The notes under the pieces: generated by a model
What the model was told of the DNA's origin: nothing
Database searches by the model: none
What the model saw: only the letters and a program-made list of their open reading frames with translations
Program-made: the position numbers and the translations under genes
From: Neocallimastix sp. 'constans'
Lineage: Eukaryota
Direction of reading: 5' to 3'
DNA length: 64,000 bases
Assembly: GCA_050613775.1 (NCBI GenBank)
Contig: JBODTK010000014.1
Location: 434,001 to 498,000 of the forward strand
Shown: positions 11,701 to 23,652 of the stretch, in pieces
How the letters are laid out: every line of letters begins with the position of its first letter
How positions within the stretch are numbered: position 1 is the stretch's first letter

Positions 11701-11854
11701 TAAATATTATATAGATTATTATTCAATATTATAATAAAATGTATAATGTGGCGTATAATGATATTATAAAATCACATGTTTTTATTATTTTATGTAGAAT
11801 TATTATAGATAGCTATATTTAATATTTATTATGAAGTAAATTAAAAGATGATTA

Positions 11855-14345
11855 TTGTGTCGTTTTACTTCAGTTGAAAAATTTGATATCATTGCTCCTA
11901 TTGTGGAAGACCAAGATATGGAAATGATTGCCTGTTATATTAGATATATTGGACCTAATAAAAGTATTAATACATTAGGAATGTTTTTGACAGATAACGG
12001 AGATTCATATTTAGAAAAAAAAGAACGTATAAATAAAAGTACTGATGAATCTTCCATTAAAGAGAAAGATGTAATGTTTCCTTTAGAATATATTCATTCT
12101 ACTAAGTTTTATTCAAAATTAGATCCAAAAGTTAGAAATGAAATAATAGAAATTTTAGTTGTATATATTGATGTTATTTCTACTTCAACTGATGAACTTA
12201 CACCTTCCAAATTAAATCTTCATCATATTGAACTTATTAAGAACGCATAACCATTTAAAAGCAAATTTTATAAATTAAATAAAATTAAGTCGGATATACT
12301 TAAGGAAGAGTTGATTAAACTTATTAATCAGGGGTTAATTGAGCACTCTAAATCTTCCTGGTCTTCTCCTATTGTGTTAGTACTAAAGAAAAATGGAAAA
12401 TGGAGATTGTGTTCTGACTACCGTAAGCTAAATGCTATAACAGTACCAGATTCTTATTCTCTTCCTAATATTGATGAAATTTTTGACAGTCTAGGAGGTG
12501 CGAAAATTTTCTCAACTCTGGATCTCTTCTCAGGTTATCATCAAATTAGAATGGACGAAGATAGTATCGGCTTAACATGTTTTACCACTAAATTTGGTAA
12601 TTTCGTCTACAATGTTATGCCCTTTGGACTTACTGGTGCTCCAGCTACTCAAATGAATCGGATTCTCTTTGATTTATTGGGTAAATGTGTATTTGTTTTT
12701 ATTGATGACATTTTAATATTTTCTAAATCAAAAGAATATCACTTAAAACATTTAAACATGGTATTTGAAGTATTCAGAAAATATGAAATAAAAATCAATA
12801 TTGAAAAATGTTCCTTTTTCCCAGAAGAAGTTGAAGTTTTAGGTCATATAGTTACTAATAAAGGTTAATGCTGTTAAAAACTGGATTAGACCTTGCAATA
12901 TTAATGAATTACGATCTTTCCTGGGTACTGTTGGATATTATAGAAAATTTATAAATAATTTCGCTATGTTAGCCGCTCCCTTAAATAAACTTTTGAGAAA
13001 GAATGTTTCATTTACATGGACAGAAGTACAACAATCTAGTTTTGATAAATTAAAAAATTCTATTATTCAGACTCCTATCTTAGCTTTTCCCGATTATAAT
13101 GAGCAATTTATAATTAAAACTGATGCTTCAAAAGATGGGTTAGGTGGAGTATTATTACAAATAAATGAAGAAGATGGACTTGAACATCCTGTTCATTTTG
13201 TTAGTAGAACGATAGAAAAAGCCGAAAAAAATTATAGTATCACAGATTTAGAAGGTACTGCGGTATATTTCTATGCAAAAAAAATTTAAATCTTATATTT
13301 CTGGGAATAAATTTGAGACGCAACCACTTACAGACCATAAACCTCTAGTTGGTTTATTTAATAATAAAGAGCCTAATAATATGAGGCATAAGAAAAATTC
13401 TCATGCAGATGCTCTCTCAAGAATTAAGTCAAATAATCAAAATATTAATGAAAATAAGAATACTATAGAAATATCTAATAAAAGGGAAGTATCATCTCAG
13501 GAGGGAAAGAATAAGGACTTAGAAAATAAGGACAATGAGAAACCAGAAAATAAAGATATTAAGAAATTTATATAAAAATGAAAATTTAAAAAATTCTAAT
13601 ATAAAATTTCAAAAATTAATTTAGACAAAAAAATTAAAAATTTCAAAATTATTTCTAATTTAAAAATTTCGAGGGAAAAAGCAAGGTATATAGAAGATCC
13701 AAAAATCATGGAATATTCTAAAAATTTAACAAATCCTAGATCTATTTGACGTATATGTTAAATTTACTGTTACTTATCATCCAGAATCTAACGGCTTAAC
13801 AGAAAATAGAAATCGAGAAATCGGAAAATTACTAAGACTACTGGGAAATAAATAAAGAGAATGGGATATGCTTTTACCTTCTGCTTTATGGGCTTTAAGA
13901 ACTTCAAAAAGTTCAGTAACGAAATATTCCAGTTTTGAACTTGTTTACGGTAGAAAAGATCAACAACCATTCGAATTATCCACAACCTTACCTACCACTT
14001 ATGTTCAAAGAACTTAAGAAGAAAAGTTAATTGAAAAATTTATAGACCACTATAAATGGGTTATAGATGCTTGTAATAATATCATTAAAAATAATAAATA
14101 TTAGGAAACTAAAAGAGAAGAAGAAACAAGTTTTAATAAACAAAATGAAATAAAAATAGGCGATTTAATTAAAGTAAGGAACTTTTCGAGATATAAATTA
14201 GACCCTTATTTTGTTGGACCTTATCAAGTAGTTAAAAAGAAATTTAATACAGTTCAATTAATGGATCCTACCACACATACATGCTTAGAACGACCAGTAC
14301 ATATTAAAAATATTACCAAGTATAATACAATTAAGGTAGAGTTGT
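11855..14345 (+). pseudogene. pol: Degenerate Ty3/gypsy pol (RT, RNase H, partial integrase), related to element C
   Basis: SPIVLVLKKNGKWRLCSDYRKLN, LDLFSGYHQI, MPFGL, FIDDILIFS, TDASKDGLGGVLLQ, YHPESNG and PYFVGPY; many stops and frameshifts. Confidence 0.92.
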
Positions 14346-14363
14346 ATCTTAAGGTGGGACGAA

Positions 14364-14904
14364 TGATATAAAATAAAAATATTCAAACCTTAATTAATAT
14401 AAAATAATTTTTAATATTCAAACATAAATTAACGTCATAAATCAAATTTAAATCTAATGATTTTATAACAATATGTGGCTTGATTTCTATAGATTAATTA
14501 TATTTATAAATAATAATAAATTTTATAGTATAAATCAATGCTTTAATTATATTCTTACTATTTTATATTTATATTTATATAGTTATTAAATATTTCCTTA
14601 AATAATAATTATTAATAGTTTATTTTAATCACAAGAACAATTAATTAAATAGTTAACTATAACTAAATGACATAAAAATAAAGCATTTCTCTGAATTAAG
14701 AGAAGTGTTAAGTGTTAAATTAAGTTATGTCGTGTTTAGTAATGTTAAGTTAGTTTGTAATTAAAAGTATAAGAAAGTTGTTAAATAGCTCTTTAAATAT
14801 ATGCAATTTTTAAATAAAATCAATTAAAGAAATAAACTAATAAACTAATAAATTTAATAAATAAATCCCAACAAAAGTACATAGAACTTTTGAGTTGTAT
14901 ATCA
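14364..14904 (+). mobile_element. 3' LTR of the 11855-14345 gypsy relic (541 bp)
   Basis: AAGGTGGGACGAA purine tract then TGATATA; ends TATATCA (7-bp inverted repeat). Confidence 0.7.
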
Positions 14905-15851: not shown

Positions 15852-16614
15852 TGTAAAGTTTTAATAAAATCTTTAATAAGTAATTATATAATAATTAATG
15901 TAAAACAATACATAAATTTATGATTCAATTTTATTAAAATTTATTATAATTTATGTAAATTCTTCAAAAGGATAAATTATTATATAAATAATTTTGGATA
16001 ATAAATTAAATCTAAATAATTTACTTAAGTTAGTCAATTTAGTTTAGTTTATTTAATTTAGTTATTTTATTTAACTTAGTTAATTAGTTTAGTTAGTTTA
16101 AAATACTTCAAAATTAATTTTGGAGTAGTTTTAAATAGTTAAAATTAGTTTAAATAATTTATAAAAATAGTTTTGATTTGTAAATATATAAACATTAGTA
16201 TTAATAATATTTATATAATAAATAAATAATAAATGAGCTCTTATTGAATTTAGTTATTATTGTAAATAAATTGAAAGTTTATTGAATTAATAATTGTTTA
16301 TTTTTAGATAGTTGTTATTTAATAAAATTATTAATATATATTTTGTTTATAAATAAATAGTAATATATGTAAATTAGATAGGAATAATATATTATAATGT
16401 AGTCAAGAAAAAATATAAATACGTGTAAATATTATTATTTAAATCGATATATCAGTTATTGACTATTATATAGTTTATAACAAAGGAGATCTAAATATCA
16501 ACAATTAATAAAGATTAAATTTAAGAGGAAAGAAATTTTTTTTGTGCTTTATTTTAAAAAAATTTTTGTGTTTATTTAGTTATTTGTAATCTGTTTTATA
16601 ACAAACCTTTTACA
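15852..16614 (+). mobile_element. 3' LTR of the chromovirus relic
   Basis: Purine tract GAAAGGCGAGAA then TGTAAAG; ends CTTTTACA. Confidence 0.65.
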
Positions 16615-16619
16615 GTAAA

Positions 16620-17493
16620 CGTTCAAGAAATTTAAGTAATTTAAGTAATCATAGTAGTGTTAATAGTTTTAATAATGGCGTTGAACAACAAATTAAAGTT
16701 AATCACTTTGGTAGTCCAAAAGTTTCATATTCCCCTCCAAATTCTGCATATAATTCACCAAACTTACAATATTCTGTAATTAGTCTTACCCTTCCATATA
16801 AAAATGCTTCAGGAAATCAAGCTCCACCAAATCCACCACCACAGCAACCACTTCCTCAATCACAACAGCAACAAATTATGGAAAGAAATCGTTATCTTGT
16901 AGAATTAGTTCAAGAATATCAAACAAATATTGATCAAATCCAACTTGATTACAACAGTAAAATATTTCAGTTAAAGGAGCTTGAAGAAAAATAAGATCAA
17001 AATTTGAAGAAAATCAAAATCAAAATATGTATAAACAAACTTTGGAAGCAAAAGATTCAAAAATCGCTAAATTAGAAGAAGAAATTGTTATGTCCTTAAC
17101 TCGAAAGATGATCATAGTTGATATTATAAATCACTTGAATTCTACTCAAAAGAAGTTAAATAATTATAAACAAGAAAATGAATTCCTTCATCAACGTATA
17201 AAGAAAATGACGGATGACGAAGATAATCTTAAGAAATCTATGAACCAAGCTAAGACCACCTTATAAAACCAAATAAATTTTAATTGAACAAGTTAATCAA
17301 TCCAAAATAGAATGAAGATGGCTGATCAATTAAAAATTGCTATTGGTGATAAGGGTTCAATATATTATACTTCATTAGCTGTGAACAAATTATTGAAGTA
17401 GAAAAAGAGAATGAACGTTTATATCAAAAGAAAAATGAATTAAAGGGTCAATTAAAAATTCTTAACAACCAAACTGATATTAAAAGCATTTAA
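16620..17493 (+). pseudogene. Decayed intronless fragment of a Pro/Gln-rich plus coiled-coil protein gene
   Basis: Reads ...SPKVSYSPPNSAYNSP...QAPPNPPPQQPLPQSQQQQIMERNRYLVELVQEYQ..., then coiled-coil heptads with stops and frameshifts; no start codon or splice sites seen. Confidence 0.55.
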
Positions 17494-18288: not shown

Positions 18289-18984
18289 TTATTGTTCTTC
18301 AGATGGTTGTTCTTGATGTTGAGTATTAGTTTCCTGTTGATCTTGTGAATTTTGTGCAGTATTAGGATCTCCTGTTAAATATACCCAAGGTCTTCTATCC
18401 ATTGGACAGGCTTGATTACTTGATTCAGTTTGAAGCCATTTTATCATACAATGTAAATGAAAACAATGTCTACATTGACCCCACACTTTATAGTTTATAA
18501 ATTAATTCAATATTTTATGTTAAGTTATTTATTAATTTATTTAAATTTACATATAATATATATATTTTTTATTTTTTAAAAAAGTCTGCATATTACTACC
18601 TAATGGACAATCATCTCCTGGAATTTTACAGGATGGGCAGCATCTATCAAATTGATTTCTACATATACCGCAAACATCATCCTCATCAGTTACAGCCCAT
18701 TTCCATAAAGCTACACTTGACCAGCTTTTTATTTATTTATTAATTGTATTTTTTAATAAATAATTAGTTTAAACATAATATATATATTTATAATGTAAAA
18801 ACATTAAAAAAAACGATTATTATTTTACCCTATATTCAAGAAATTTATTTTAAATATTCATAAAAAATAGAATTGTTTTTTAAAATATTTTAAATTATTA
18901 GAATATATTTATATAACAAAAAAAAATAGCCATTATATATAATTATTTTTTTTTCTCAATTTTACTATTTAATTTAATTTTCAT
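18289..18984 (-). CDS. APC11: Anaphase-promoting complex subunit 11 (RING-H2); exons 18984-18966, 18829, 18724-18600, 18485-18289
   Basis: Spliced product [66 protein letters not shown]...CPMDR; all introns are GT-AG only if the 1-nt exon is used. Confidence 0.95.
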
Positions 18985-19685
18985 TTTGAAAATTGGATAT
19001 AAATTTTGAAATTAAAAATTTAAATATAAAATTTTTTATAAAAAATAAACATAAAAATAGAAATACTTATTTTAAATATATTTTATTTATTTATTGTTTA
19101 AATAATATATTAATATCAATAATATCAAATAAATAAATAAATAAATAAATTTTGTTTATTAAAATTTTAGGAAAGTTGATTTTTTGTTATTTATTCAATA
19201 CTTCATTAATAAATTGTTATTTAAAAAATAAATAATTCAGATTTTCTAGAATAAGTCTATATTTTATAACAGATTATAATAGAATTTCAATTTATAGGTA
19301 ACTATTAAGAAATTATCTTTTTATATTATTAATAATAATATTAACAATAAATTATATATATTATATAAATATATATATATTTATATATATAATTTAAATA
19401 ATAAAAATATAATCATTTTTTAAAACAGTAAAAAGTAATTTCTTCATATGACATAATTTGATGTTCAGAAAAAAGCTCATCCTCAAATCAATAGAATTAT
19501 TAAAATTTATTCAGTAGCCTGAAAAAAAAAGGAAGGATAATTACTACTATTTATTTAATGTTTTATGAAATAAAGATATAACAAAAATAGTTTTTATTTA
19601 GTATTTGGTAATTCTTCAGTGTTGTATTAGCATTATCTTAAACTGATGTGATTGCAAAGGATTAATTAATTTCTTTCACATTATT

Positions 19686-21081: not shown

Positions 21082-22559
21082 TTAATCTTCTAATTTAATG
21101 TTATTTGCTTCTTCTTTTACATCAACAACGTCATCTTTAGATTTTAAATGTTCTGCTAATATTTTATTCATTTGGAACATATGAACTCTCTTAGTTTTAA
21201 AGATGGAAAATAGATTATCATCACAGAGAATGTAACGTTTATCACTTTCATCTTGTAATTTTTTTTCTTTAATATATTCCCATATCTGTTTCACTACCTG
21301 AGGTCTGGGTAGTTCTGTTTGATTATTAAGAAAACTGGAAAGTACTGGACTCAATAGCATAGGCTTATTAAATCCATTATTAGGGGCTGCCTTTTTAGGT
21401 TTATCAGCTTTGGAAGCTTTGCCTCTACCACCAGCTTTCTTTCTGGCAGCTTTCTTTTCTTTTTCAGCTTTTTCTTCTTCTTCTGTTTTTTCCTTTTTAC
21501 AGGAAGTTCCATCCAATTTTGTTAAGTGATCATTTAGTAATTTATTCATTGAAAATCCTGAAAATCTATCTACACCAAATACATTCTTTAATTTACTGTC
21601 ACTTAGTATAAAACGTTTGTCAGCTGGATCTTGTAAATCATTTTCTTTAATATAGGCCCATAAGTTTTTAACAATTTCTGTTCTTGACATTTGCTCTGCC
21701 CCTAAGAATTTTCCAAGTTTTTCACTTAATATCAGTGGAGCATTTAAACCTCCTGATCCTGGTTTTCTCTTTGTTTTTTTAGCTTTAGCTTTTGTTTTAG
21801 TTTTAGTTTTACGTTTTCTTTTATCTCCTGCTTTAACTGCTTTATTTACATCATCATAAACATCACTATCAACACTATCACTGTTCATTTCTTCTTCTGA
21901 TGAAACTAAGTTGGTATGATTAATACCATCTGATTTTGAATTTTTAATGGAATCAACATATTCATCATCTGATAATCCATAAGATTTTTCTTCTATTTAT
22001 TGAATTTTTATTATCAAAATTTTATTAATATAAAATATTTTAGCATTATATATATTAAATTATAAATATTGATATCAGAATGAATAATTATAACAAAATT
22101 TTTATAATATATTTATATATATATTGTTTAAATGGTATAGCATAATATTTGAATATTAATATTGAATAAGTACGATAAGTATTAATGATTAAATATTAAG
22201 CATATAAACATGATTGATATTATTGTAAAATCATATTCTTATTATTCATTAAACTATTGTTTTAAATATAATATCATAATATTGTAATTCAATATTAAAA
22301 AATATATAAATATATTTTTACCTGTACCTTCTTCTTCACTTTCTTCTTCTTCACTTTGTTCTGTCACTTCATCGTATATTCTTCTAATTAAATCATTAAT
22401 TGCTTTTTTTTCTTCTTTTGTTGAAAAATGAACGTTAAAATCATTTTCTAATTGTTTTCTTATTAACTTTGTTGTAATAGTTGCTAGATCAATATCATCT
22501 TTTTGTAATAATTGCCGTATTTGACCTGAATAAAGTGCTGGATATTCTGAAACTGACAT
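21082..22559 (-). CDS. DEK-C plus two SWIB/MDM2 domain protein (UAF30/TRI1/spp27-like); exons 22559-22322 and 21992-21082
   Basis: N-terminal DLATITTKLIRKQLE (DEK-C); two SWIB repeats (LSEKL...RTEIVKNLWAYIKENDLQDP and LSPVL...RPQVVKQIWEYIKEKKLQD); GT-AG intron in frame. Confidence 0.9.
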
Positions 22560-23652
22560 AATTATTCGTCTTTTTTTTTTTTTTTTTTATCTTTAAAGAA
22601 TTATATACGTGTTTATATATATTTGAAAATAATTATAATACTATAAAAAAGAATAATAGTAGTAATAATTATAAATAATAAAAAATAAAATATATTTTCT
22701 ATTCTTTATAATGGATGATACGTCTCAAGATAAAATAAAAAAAAAAATTTTTTTTAATAAAAATTATTTTTATTATATATATTATATTTCAATGACTATA
22801 TTTCAAGGTATAATTATTTATTAATCTAAAAGAAATAAATGTATTTAATTTTCTTTTAAACAAAGTGAAATAGTGTAATATAAAATATATAAATATTTAA
22901 AGTAAATCAATAAATGAATAAATATAATTTATTTTTAACTTTTATTATTAATTTAAAAACTTTGATATGACTTTATAATTATTTTTTTAATAAATTATTA
23001 TTTAAAATAAAATTAAAATTTTTATAATTTATTTTTAATTTTCTTTTCTTTTTTTTTTTTTTTTTTTCTAAAAAAAAATAAATTATTTTTATAAATTTAA
23101 TTTTATCTTTAATAAAAAAGAATATAATAGCAAAATATAAAAGTCACAATAAAAATAAATATATAAATTATATAAAATTATATAAATGAAAAATATTTAA
23201 AAAAACAATAATAAAATATATAAAAGAAAAAAATATAAATTATAAATTGATATAATAAAGTCAATATATATTAATATAATAAATAATAAATAATAAATAA
23301 TAAATAATAAATAATAAATAATAAATAATAAATAATAAATAATAAATAATAAATAATAAATATAATAAATAATTAAATAATAAATAATAAATAATAAATA
23401 AATAATAAATAATAAATAATAAATAATAAATATTAAATATTAAATATTAAATATTAAATAATAAATATTAAAATTTTAATTAATTATTTATTTATTTTAA
23501 TTTATTAATACTTATTATATATGAATGTAATGTATTGATTTTGTATTAAAATGTATCAATAACGTATTAAATTTTTATTTTTTTTATTTTTTTTTTAGCA
23601 ATTAATTAGAATATTTAAGATTTGAATTTTATATGAAAAGATTAGATTTAAC

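What the first reader, a model, noticed from the sequence alone, without database searches (positions are those of the whole stretch)
18725..18965. Single-nucleotide exon in APC11
Seen: exon 1 ends AAT A|gtaaaa and the next large exon starts aaaaag|C TGG, which is one base short of frame. Midway lies atatag|G|gtaaaa (minus strand, G = 18829). Using it gives A+G+C = Ser7 and MKIKLNSW, via two canonical introns of 136 and 104 nt. Established: a single-nucleotide exon has been reported in Arabidopsis APC11. Inference: if the position is homologous, this 1-nt exon is shared by plants and fungi and so is very ancient; standard gene finders would miss it.
Basis: partly seen in the sequence, partly recalled or inferred. 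Interest (0 to 1): 0.9.

Follow-up and report, generated by a model that had tools for sequence, protein, structure and literature searches.

The report
Ancient one-base exon in APC11
A gut-fungus cell-division gene (APC11) needs a single G, set between two short introns, to spell its protein; this one-base exon very likely sits at the same spot as the one known in plants, and traces in coral and sea-urchin gene models suggest it may predate the split of plants, fungi and animals.

Summary
The gene is Neocallimastix APC11 (minus strand): 19-nt exon 1, 136-nt intron, G18829, 104-nt intron, exon 3. The spliced product equals a database protein at all 113 residues. Contigs of 5 of 8 runs laid (5 studies) splice out the downstream intron, keep the G and retain the upstream intron. 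Removal of the upstream intron was not seen. No extra G lies at the exon 1 donor. Mis-annotated N-termini of 61 land-plant APC11 hits place the plant 1-nt exon at base 20, the middle of codon 7, as here (inferred from proteins, not plant DNA). A sea-urchin and a coral RefSeq model and a coral-like contig show the same signatures. Another fungus and a protist have only the downstream intron; basidiomycetes have neither. One-base exons are a known kind, and this scan noted others in other genes, none in APC11. What is new is cross-kingdom sharing, not found in my paper searches. Real exon about 0.93; same position as plants about 0.9; common ancestry about 0.6.

The parts
18966..18984 (-). Coding exon 1 (19 nt, codons 1-6 plus first base of codon 7)
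   Evidence: product identical to P0007
18830..18965 (-). Intron A, 136 nt, GT..AG, phase 1 of codon 7. Retained in every contig that covers it; only YTRAY branch-like site lies 72 nt from its 3' end
   Evidence: retention; its removal is inferred from protein identity, not seen
18829..18829 (-). One-nucleotide exon (G), CDS base 20, middle base of Ser7 (A-G-C)
18725..18828 (-). Intron B, 104 nt, GT..AG, phase 2 of codon 7; branch-like CTAAT 43 nt from its 3' end
   Evidence: spliced out in contigs of X14, X15, X16, X17, X18
18600..18724 (-). Exon 3 (125 nt; last base of codon 7, Trp8 to the DDCPL motif)
18486..18599 (-). Intron 3, 114 nt, phase 1 after DDCPL
   Evidence: joint 18485-18600 in 3 of 4 runs
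18289..18485 (-). Exon 4 to stop codon (second half of the RING-H2 finger and a Q/E-rich tail)
   Evidence: Pfam PF12861 at 110.9 bits, cut-off 25

Best explanation
G18829 is a one-base coding exon of the Neocallimastix APC11 gene: the downstream intron is spliced out first, joining the G to exon 3, and the upstream intron is likely removed afterwards to complete Ser7 (A-G-C), at what is very likely the same position as the plant APC11 one-base exon. Shown: both introns have canonical ends, the G is needed for the frame, and the downstream-spliced, upstream-retained RNA exists. Inferred: two spliceosomes cannot sit on both sides of one base, so the introns go one at a time. After intron B is gone, the AG at 18831-18830 is the first AG downstream of intron A's branch site and is followed by a normal-sized exon (G + exon 3). 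Intron A is probably slow or detained, as reported for upstream introns of plant microexons (PMC8831610). Retaining it gives a stop after 13 codons, so its removal would be the limiting step for making APC11. Skipping the G frameshifts an essential ubiquitin-ligase subunit, so selection would keep the exon until both introns are lost together. I favour inheritance from the common ancestor of plants, fungi and animals (about 0.6) over independent origin.
For: RNA: joint 18724-18829 (skip 104, CT..AC = GT..AG on the minus strand) in X14 (1 of 4 runs) and X15, X16, X17, X18 (4 of 4), five studies; each continues into intron A. X15, X17 and X18 are on record as RNA; X14 and X16 are guessed RNA. 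The joint can slide by one base, but only this cut gives GT..AG. Protein: the four-exon product is identical to P0007 (KAG4084960.1, KAL6631167.1); P. finnis and A. robustus proteins also begin MKIKLNSW. Met1-to-Trp14 spacing is the same in human APC11 and in the fungal alignment. No extra G: contigs of X4 (18600-19055) and X15 (18829-19021) cross the exon 1 donor with 0 other letters and 0 gaps. Plant position (61 land-plant hits among the best 150): 11 have a full N-terminus, all with Q or K at codon 7 (middle base A); 12 read as exon 1 in a shifted frame joined to Trp8 exactly one base short; 21 end in R before Trp8 (AG|R TGG, acceptor of intron B); 7 end in E (5 after T or I, i.e. YAG|A|R TGG, the intermediate); 8 others and 2 without Trp8 are unexplained or mixed. 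The shifted signature fits 21 of 4240 control 7-mers, 2 of them themselves shifted exon 1. Juglans and Melastoma models read through a GT right after base 19, and a Dionaea model through a GT after base 20 (decoded by hand). The Arabidopsis primer used on both cDNA and genomic DNA stops at base 19 (PMC4674806 supplement). Animals: Lytechinus variegatus XP_041464599.1 has the one-base-short signature; Pocillopora verrucosa XP_058958007.2 ends SE before Trp8; coral-like contig L058, with an identical downstream protein, reads tcag|AG TGG after an intron-like stretch. Intron B alone is present in DNA of a fungus-like locus (L051, 77 nt) and one non-fungal eukaryote (L073-L076).
Against: No contig of the 8 runs laid shows intron A removed. 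This is a gap rather than evidence of absence, since contigs drop short or rare paths, but the last step is unproven here. I could not see how the P0007, P0008 and P0009 gene models are joined, nor genomic DNA of other gut fungi. The plant position rests on back-translated protein models: the figure of PMC4674806 and the main supplement of PMC8831610 could not be read, and PMC3095333 lists Arabidopsis codon 7 as R (and poplar as R in one file, Q in another), which I read as genome-forced models but did not test. None of the 80 metagenome loci shows both introns: 70 are uninterrupted at codon 7 (many basidiomycete-like; some are transcripts), 5 have intron B only, 2 are truncated after an acceptor, 3 are uninformative. 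These were the best 80 of 177 by tblastn, which disfavours interrupted genes. Intron-B-only lineages are not what loss through a fully spliced cDNA would leave. The sea-urchin signature could be a one-base assembly deletion in a run of A; L058 could be a gene with intron A only.
Confidence: 0.85

Rival explanations
1. The exon is real but arose independently. Intron B is the ancient one, and a second intron was gained one base upstream separately in land plants, gut fungi and perhaps some animals.
For: Intron B alone is seen in DNA of L051 and L073-L076, and an intron-B-type acceptor in L014. No fetched locus outside the window shows both introns. The base differs (A in Arabidopsis, G here). 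PMC8831610 concludes that the plant exon evolved in early plants. Other one-base exons have arisen in fungi (PMC12940212).
Against: It needs two or three gains at exactly the same base. A coral model and a coral-like contig have an acceptor at site A, and a sea-urchin model is one base short in codon 7.
Confidence: 0.3
2. Intron A is never efficiently removed at 18830. The functional mRNA uses a single GT..AG intron to the 18711 acceptor (losing Trp8-Ala12), another first exon, or a non-AUG start within intron A.
For: Intron A is retained in every contig that covers it. The 18711 acceptor is the one in-frame single-intron alternative. A paralog model (P0006) joins exon 1 to a later acceptor.
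Against: No contig uses 18711. It would delete residues conserved across the alignments. With intron A retained no in-frame ATG exists, and the frame is closed 10 codons upstream of Trp8. Three gut-fungus genera have database proteins beginning MKIKLNSW.
Confidence: 0.05
3. Assembly error: the genome lacks a G at the exon 1 donor, and the 241 nt are one ordinary intron.
For: Very AT-rich DNA (about 16% GC) is error-prone, and the missing base equals the G of the donor.
Against: Contigs of X4 and X15 bridge the donor with 31 or more letters a side and no difference; X2 and X17 cross it with fewer. The internal donor is used in 5 runs.
Confidence: 0.01
4. One non-canonical 240-nt intron (GT..AA, or cut after the donor G) is removed in a single step, or the stretch is a stwintron with no true exon.
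For: The mature mRNA would be the same. Stwintrons, in which one intron interrupts a splice signal of another, are known in fungi (PMC5587772, abstract passage).
Against: The two-step canonical route has its intermediate in RNA. After intron B is removed the G lies downstream of an intact AG and must stay in the message, so it is exonic, not part of a split donor or acceptor.
Confidence: 0.04

Closest known systems
Constitutive 1-nt exon A333 of Arabidopsis APC11 (PMC4674806; whole main text and supplement table read, figure not visible) and plant microexon cluster 1 (PMC8831610; section 12 and passages read, main supplement too large to read)
   Same: Same gene, same size, needed for frame, missed by annotation. 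By my decoding of plant protein models it is the same base (CDS base 20, middle of codon 7). The upstream intron is retained in the intermediate, as in the moss isoform and the plant trend described.
   Different: Different kingdom. G (Ser7) rather than A (Gln/Lys7). Short introns of 136 and 104 nt versus a 422-nt region in Arabidopsis. Described there as having evolved in early plants. No mutational test here.
One-nucleotide exon of Fusarium CYP621A (PMC12940212; first of three parts and passages read)
   Same: Fungal 1-nt G exon in AG-G-GT, middle base of a codon, between a phase 1 and a phase 2 intron.
   Different: Unrelated gene, confined to one genus, no cross-kingdom counterpart; shown there by reads across the full junction.
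1-nt microexon of plant VPS55 (PMC8831610, section 12)
   Same: Conserved 1-nt exon near the start codon, with upstream intron retention.
   Different: Unrelated gene; alternatively used; land plants only as reported.
Fungal stwintrons (PMC5587772; two passages seen)
   Same: Two GT..AG units removed one after the other.
   Different: In a stwintron the inner intron splits a splice signal of the outer one; here a base stays in the mRNA.

Membership tests
APC11 (zf-ANAPC11 RING-H2) | Pfam PF12861 above its cut-off; closer to APC11 than to RBX1 | tested here: met
   110.9 bits versus cut-off 25; human APC11 E 1.9e-33, best RBX1 1.8e-17
Single-nucleotide exon | One base between a canonical AG and GT, with both flanking introns of ordinary size | tested here: met
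Single-nucleotide exon | Base required for the reading frame of a conserved protein | tested here: met
Single-nucleotide exon | Downstream junction (base to next exon) present in RNA | tested here: met
   5 of 8 runs laid
Single-nucleotide exon | Upstream junction (previous exon to base) present in RNA | tested here: inconclusive
   0 of 8 runs; contigs only; inferred from identity with P0007
Single-nucleotide exon | Not a genome error | tested here: met
   X4 and X15 contigs bridge the exon 1 donor without difference
Single-nucleotide exon | Substituting the base changes the cDNA | not testable with these tools
   bench test as in PMC4674806
Plant APC11 microexon (cluster 1) | Same codon and phase (both introns in codon 7, phases 1 and 2) | tested here: met
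   Indirect: back-translation of 61 land-plant protein N-termini with a control; no plant genomic DNA read
Plant APC11 microexon (cluster 1) | Descent from one ancestral exon (continuous presence in deep lineages) | tested here: inconclusive
   Supporting traces in a sea-urchin model, a coral model and L058; intron B only in L051 and L073-L076; neither in basidiomycete-like loci
Stwintron | Inner intron interrupts the donor, branch site or acceptor of an outer intron, and no base is left between them | tested here: not met
   The AG at 18831-18830 is intact before splicing and the G is needed in the message

The most novel reading that the evidence does not exclude
The one-base exon in codon 7 of APC11 was already present in the common ancestor of plants, fungi and animals. 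It survives, mostly unannotated, in land plants, gut fungi, corals and sea urchins, with the same order of splicing (downstream intron first, upstream intron detained). [quoted passage not shown]
Probability: 0.6. Interest if true: 0.82.

Novelty: new member of a known kind. Interest (0 to 1): 0.68.

Why it matters
One-base exons are known from a handful of genes and have been treated as lineage-specific; PMC8831610 places the APC11 exon's origin in early plants. If the same exon is in fungi and animals, the ancestral spliceosome already handled the smallest possible exon, and the structure lasted across kingdoms. It also gives a simple test of intron loss: two introns one base apart should be lost together by cDNA recombination, yet some lineages keep only one. 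In practice it explains many broken APC11 models in public databases (50 of the 61 land-plant hits examined lack a normal N-terminus or Trp8) and names specific coral and sea-urchin models to check.

Tried and rejected
Fully spliced junction: not found in any of the 8 runs laid of 22 listed. All are contigs; with only 19 coding bases plus a short leader upstream, the spliced path may be trimmed in assembly (my inference, untested). X19 gave no real cover of the gene. Contig depths were not used to measure intron retention. No whole genome is held for this window, so paralogs and other microexons were not surveyed. Viral contigs gave nothing (105 and 58 pattern matches, none confirmed). Genome contigs gave one weak bacterial match, L081, judged spurious. 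The tree of 25 APC11 rows was mostly unresolved: it places L051 outside the non-fungal group, L058 with an animal-like row, and L073 on a long branch, and was not used for order of events. Porites harrisoni (P0231), Blattella germanica (P0225), P0236, P0226 and P0249 have junk N-termini; some fit an intron-B acceptor but none is decisive. L005, L010, L012 and L068 are uninterrupted at codon 7 (two have introns at other codons). Non-AUG start inside intron A rejected. Paper searches finding no report outside plants: APC11+single-nucleotide exon (4 papers), APC11+microexon+fungi, an N-terminal peptide, APC11+1-nt microexon, APC11 gene structure in land plants, microexon+Neocallimastix, ANAPC11+microexon (15 of 272 listed, none on this), anaphase promoting complex+one-base exon wordings, microexon+last eukaryotic common ancestor (unrelated by its listing). 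The library lacks most subscription papers. The unreadable supplement of PMC8831610 (Supplementary Fig. 7) would give the plant phase directly.

Full report
Observation. The window is very AT-rich (12-32% GC per 2 kb). On the minus strand the gene starts at 18984. Exon 1 is 19 nt; a GT..AG intron of 136 nt (18965-18830) is followed by one G (18829), a second GT..AG intron of 104 nt (18828-18725), a 125-nt exon, a 114-nt intron and a last exon ending at 18289. Without the G the frame stops after 10 residues; with it the product is 113 aa. The 241-nt stretch has three AG dinucleotides and one AG-N-GT. The only single-intron in-frame alternative uses the AG at 18711 and deletes Trp8-Ala12. In 5000 shuffles a YAG-N-GTR appeared in 1.2-3.4%, and any frame-restoring microexon in 5-16%, so the motif alone would not be enough.

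Identity. Exon 3 matches a Neocallimastix californiae protein at 100%; that model is 'partial' and begins IKSW, which is the end of intron B read in frame. Its 90% cluster has 7 members. One (P0007; KAG4084960.1, KAL6631167.1) is identical to the spliced product. Piromyces finnis and Anaeromyces robustus proteins also begin MKIKLNSW, Piromyces E2 is partial from Ser7, and two are a paralog, one of which joins the 19-nt exon to a later acceptor (the join is my reading). The protein scores 110.9 bits on PF12861 and aligns from residue 1 with human APC11 without a gap before Trp14. That the N-terminal strand binds the cullin APC2 is recalled knowledge, not tested.

RNA. Of 22 runs holding the stretch, 8 were laid, all as assembled contigs. 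The joint 18724-18829, skipping 104 bases with CT..AC ends, is in X14 and in X15, X16, X17 and X18: 5 of 8 runs, five studies. In each the contig continues into intron A. X2 and X4 show both introns retained; X19 gave no real cover. Intron 3 is spliced in 3 of the 4 runs. No contig shows intron A removed, with or without intron B. Contigs crossing the exon 1 donor match the window with no gap, so no G is missing from the assembly. This is the order that PMC8831610 reports for plant microexons (upstream intron more often detained) and matches its moss APC11 isoform with the base at the 3' end of a larger exon. With intron A retained, translation stops after 13 codons and no in-frame ATG exists.

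Is it the plant position? The papers' text does not give the codon, and the supplement that would was too large. The Arabidopsis primer used on both cDNA and genomic DNA ends at base 19. PMC3095333's supplements list rice as MKVKILQW, Arabidopsis with R7, and poplar with R7 in one file and Q7 in another; the R would follow from borrowing the G of the donor, which is my inference. I then searched 1.84 billion representatives with a plant-like protein from L022 and decoded the 61 land-plant hits among the best 150. Eleven have a full N-terminus, all Q or K at codon 7. Twelve read as exon 1 in a shifted frame joined to Trp8 one base short, keeping the first base of codon 7. Twenty-one end in R before Trp8, as an acceptor with one base before TGG would give (10 of the 20 with a preceding residue must end in a pyrimidine; background 26%). 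Seven end in E, five after T or I, as YAG + A + one base + TGG would give. One ends in Q, one G, one S, five otherwise, and two lack Trp8. If the exon were the third base, Q would be common and E unexplained. Juglans and Melastoma models read through a GT after base 19 and a Dionaea model through one after base 20 (names; decoded by hand). The shifted signature fits 21 of 4240 control 7-mers. So all four plant splice sites map to those of the window. This is indirect: no plant genomic DNA was read.

Beyond plants and gut fungi. Among 27 animal-type hits in the same list, 20 are full-length and 7 are not. The sea urchin Lytechinus variegatus RefSeq model has the one-base-short signature, leaving A and a pyrimidine of codon 7 where relatives have Ser. 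The coral Pocillopora verrucosa model ends SE before Trp8. Metagenome contig L058, with the same downstream protein, reads tcag|AG TGG after an intron-like stretch with CTAAT and has no intron 3, as a partly spliced RNA would. Each has another reading: an assembly deletion in a run of A for the urchin, a gene with intron A alone for the coral. Of the 80 best of 177 metagenome loci, 70 are uninterrupted at codon 7, L051 (fungus-like) and L073-L076 (one unidentified eukaryote) have intron B alone, L014 and L058 are truncated after an acceptor, 3 are uninformative, and none shows both introns (tally by hand). The ranking favours uninterrupted genes.

Mechanism and origin. Shown: canonical sites, frame requirement, intron B removed while intron A remains. 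Inferred: intron A is removed second, using the AG at 18831-18830; it is probably slow, and its only YTRAY branch-like site is 72 nt from the acceptor against 43 and 38 nt for the best sites of the other two introns. Origin: intron B is widespread and old. Site A occurs in plants, gut fungi and apparently corals. One ancestral exon with repeated losses is simpler than several gains at the same base, but the intron-B-only lineages keep independent gain of intron A alive (about 0.3).

Known work. One-base exons are published for Arabidopsis APC11 (PMC4674806), plant VPS55 (PMC8831610) and Fusarium CYP621A (PMC12940212). This scan has noted others in unrelated fungal genes (unchecked), and none like this sequence. 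My ten paper searches found no report of the APC11 exon outside plants (passages of PMC12409088 and PMC12780178 only cite the Arabidopsis case). The library lacks most subscription journals.

Verdict. A real one-base exon (about 0.93), very likely at the plant position (about 0.9), probably inherited from a common ancestor (about 0.6). It is a new member of a known kind; its interest lies in the cross-kingdom sharing, which is testable with a few genome look-ups.

Noticed in passing
window 18453-18584 (+ strand): A GT..AG stretch of 132 nt on the plus strand is skipped in a contig of X4, and the same junction shows as a loose end in X17: a spliced antisense transcript over APC11 exon 4 and intron 3, perhaps the 3' UTR of the convergent plus-strand gene (ORFs 16602-17266). 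Antisense RNA could account for some unspliced contigs.
   Followed up: no
window 18601-18721: Run X2 holds a second version of exon 3 with 7 differences; by hand all fall on third codon positions and are synonymous: another strain, species or gene copy.
   Followed up: partly
window 18486-18599: Intron 3 (phase 1 after DDCPL) lies at the same place as an intron in basidiomycete-like loci, in L051 and apparently in a plant model (P0211).
   Followed up: partly
P0006 / P0010: A second Neocallimastix APC11 copy; its model lacks Trp8-Ala17, so it is either mis-annotated for the same reason or degenerate.
   Followed up: no
window 11852-14371 (+ strand): Broken ORFs that look like protease, reverse transcriptase, RNase H and integrase pieces of a Ty3/gypsy-type retrotransposon (recognised from recalled motifs, not scanned).
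   Followed up: no
window 21082-22586 (- strand): A gene with what look like DEK-C and two SWIB/MDM2 domains (recognised from recall, not scanned).
   Followed up: no
L012 about 1400-1500; L068 about 515-570: Animal-like APC11 genes with introns at other N-terminal positions (after codon 2 and after codon 9), not in codon 7.
   Followed up: no
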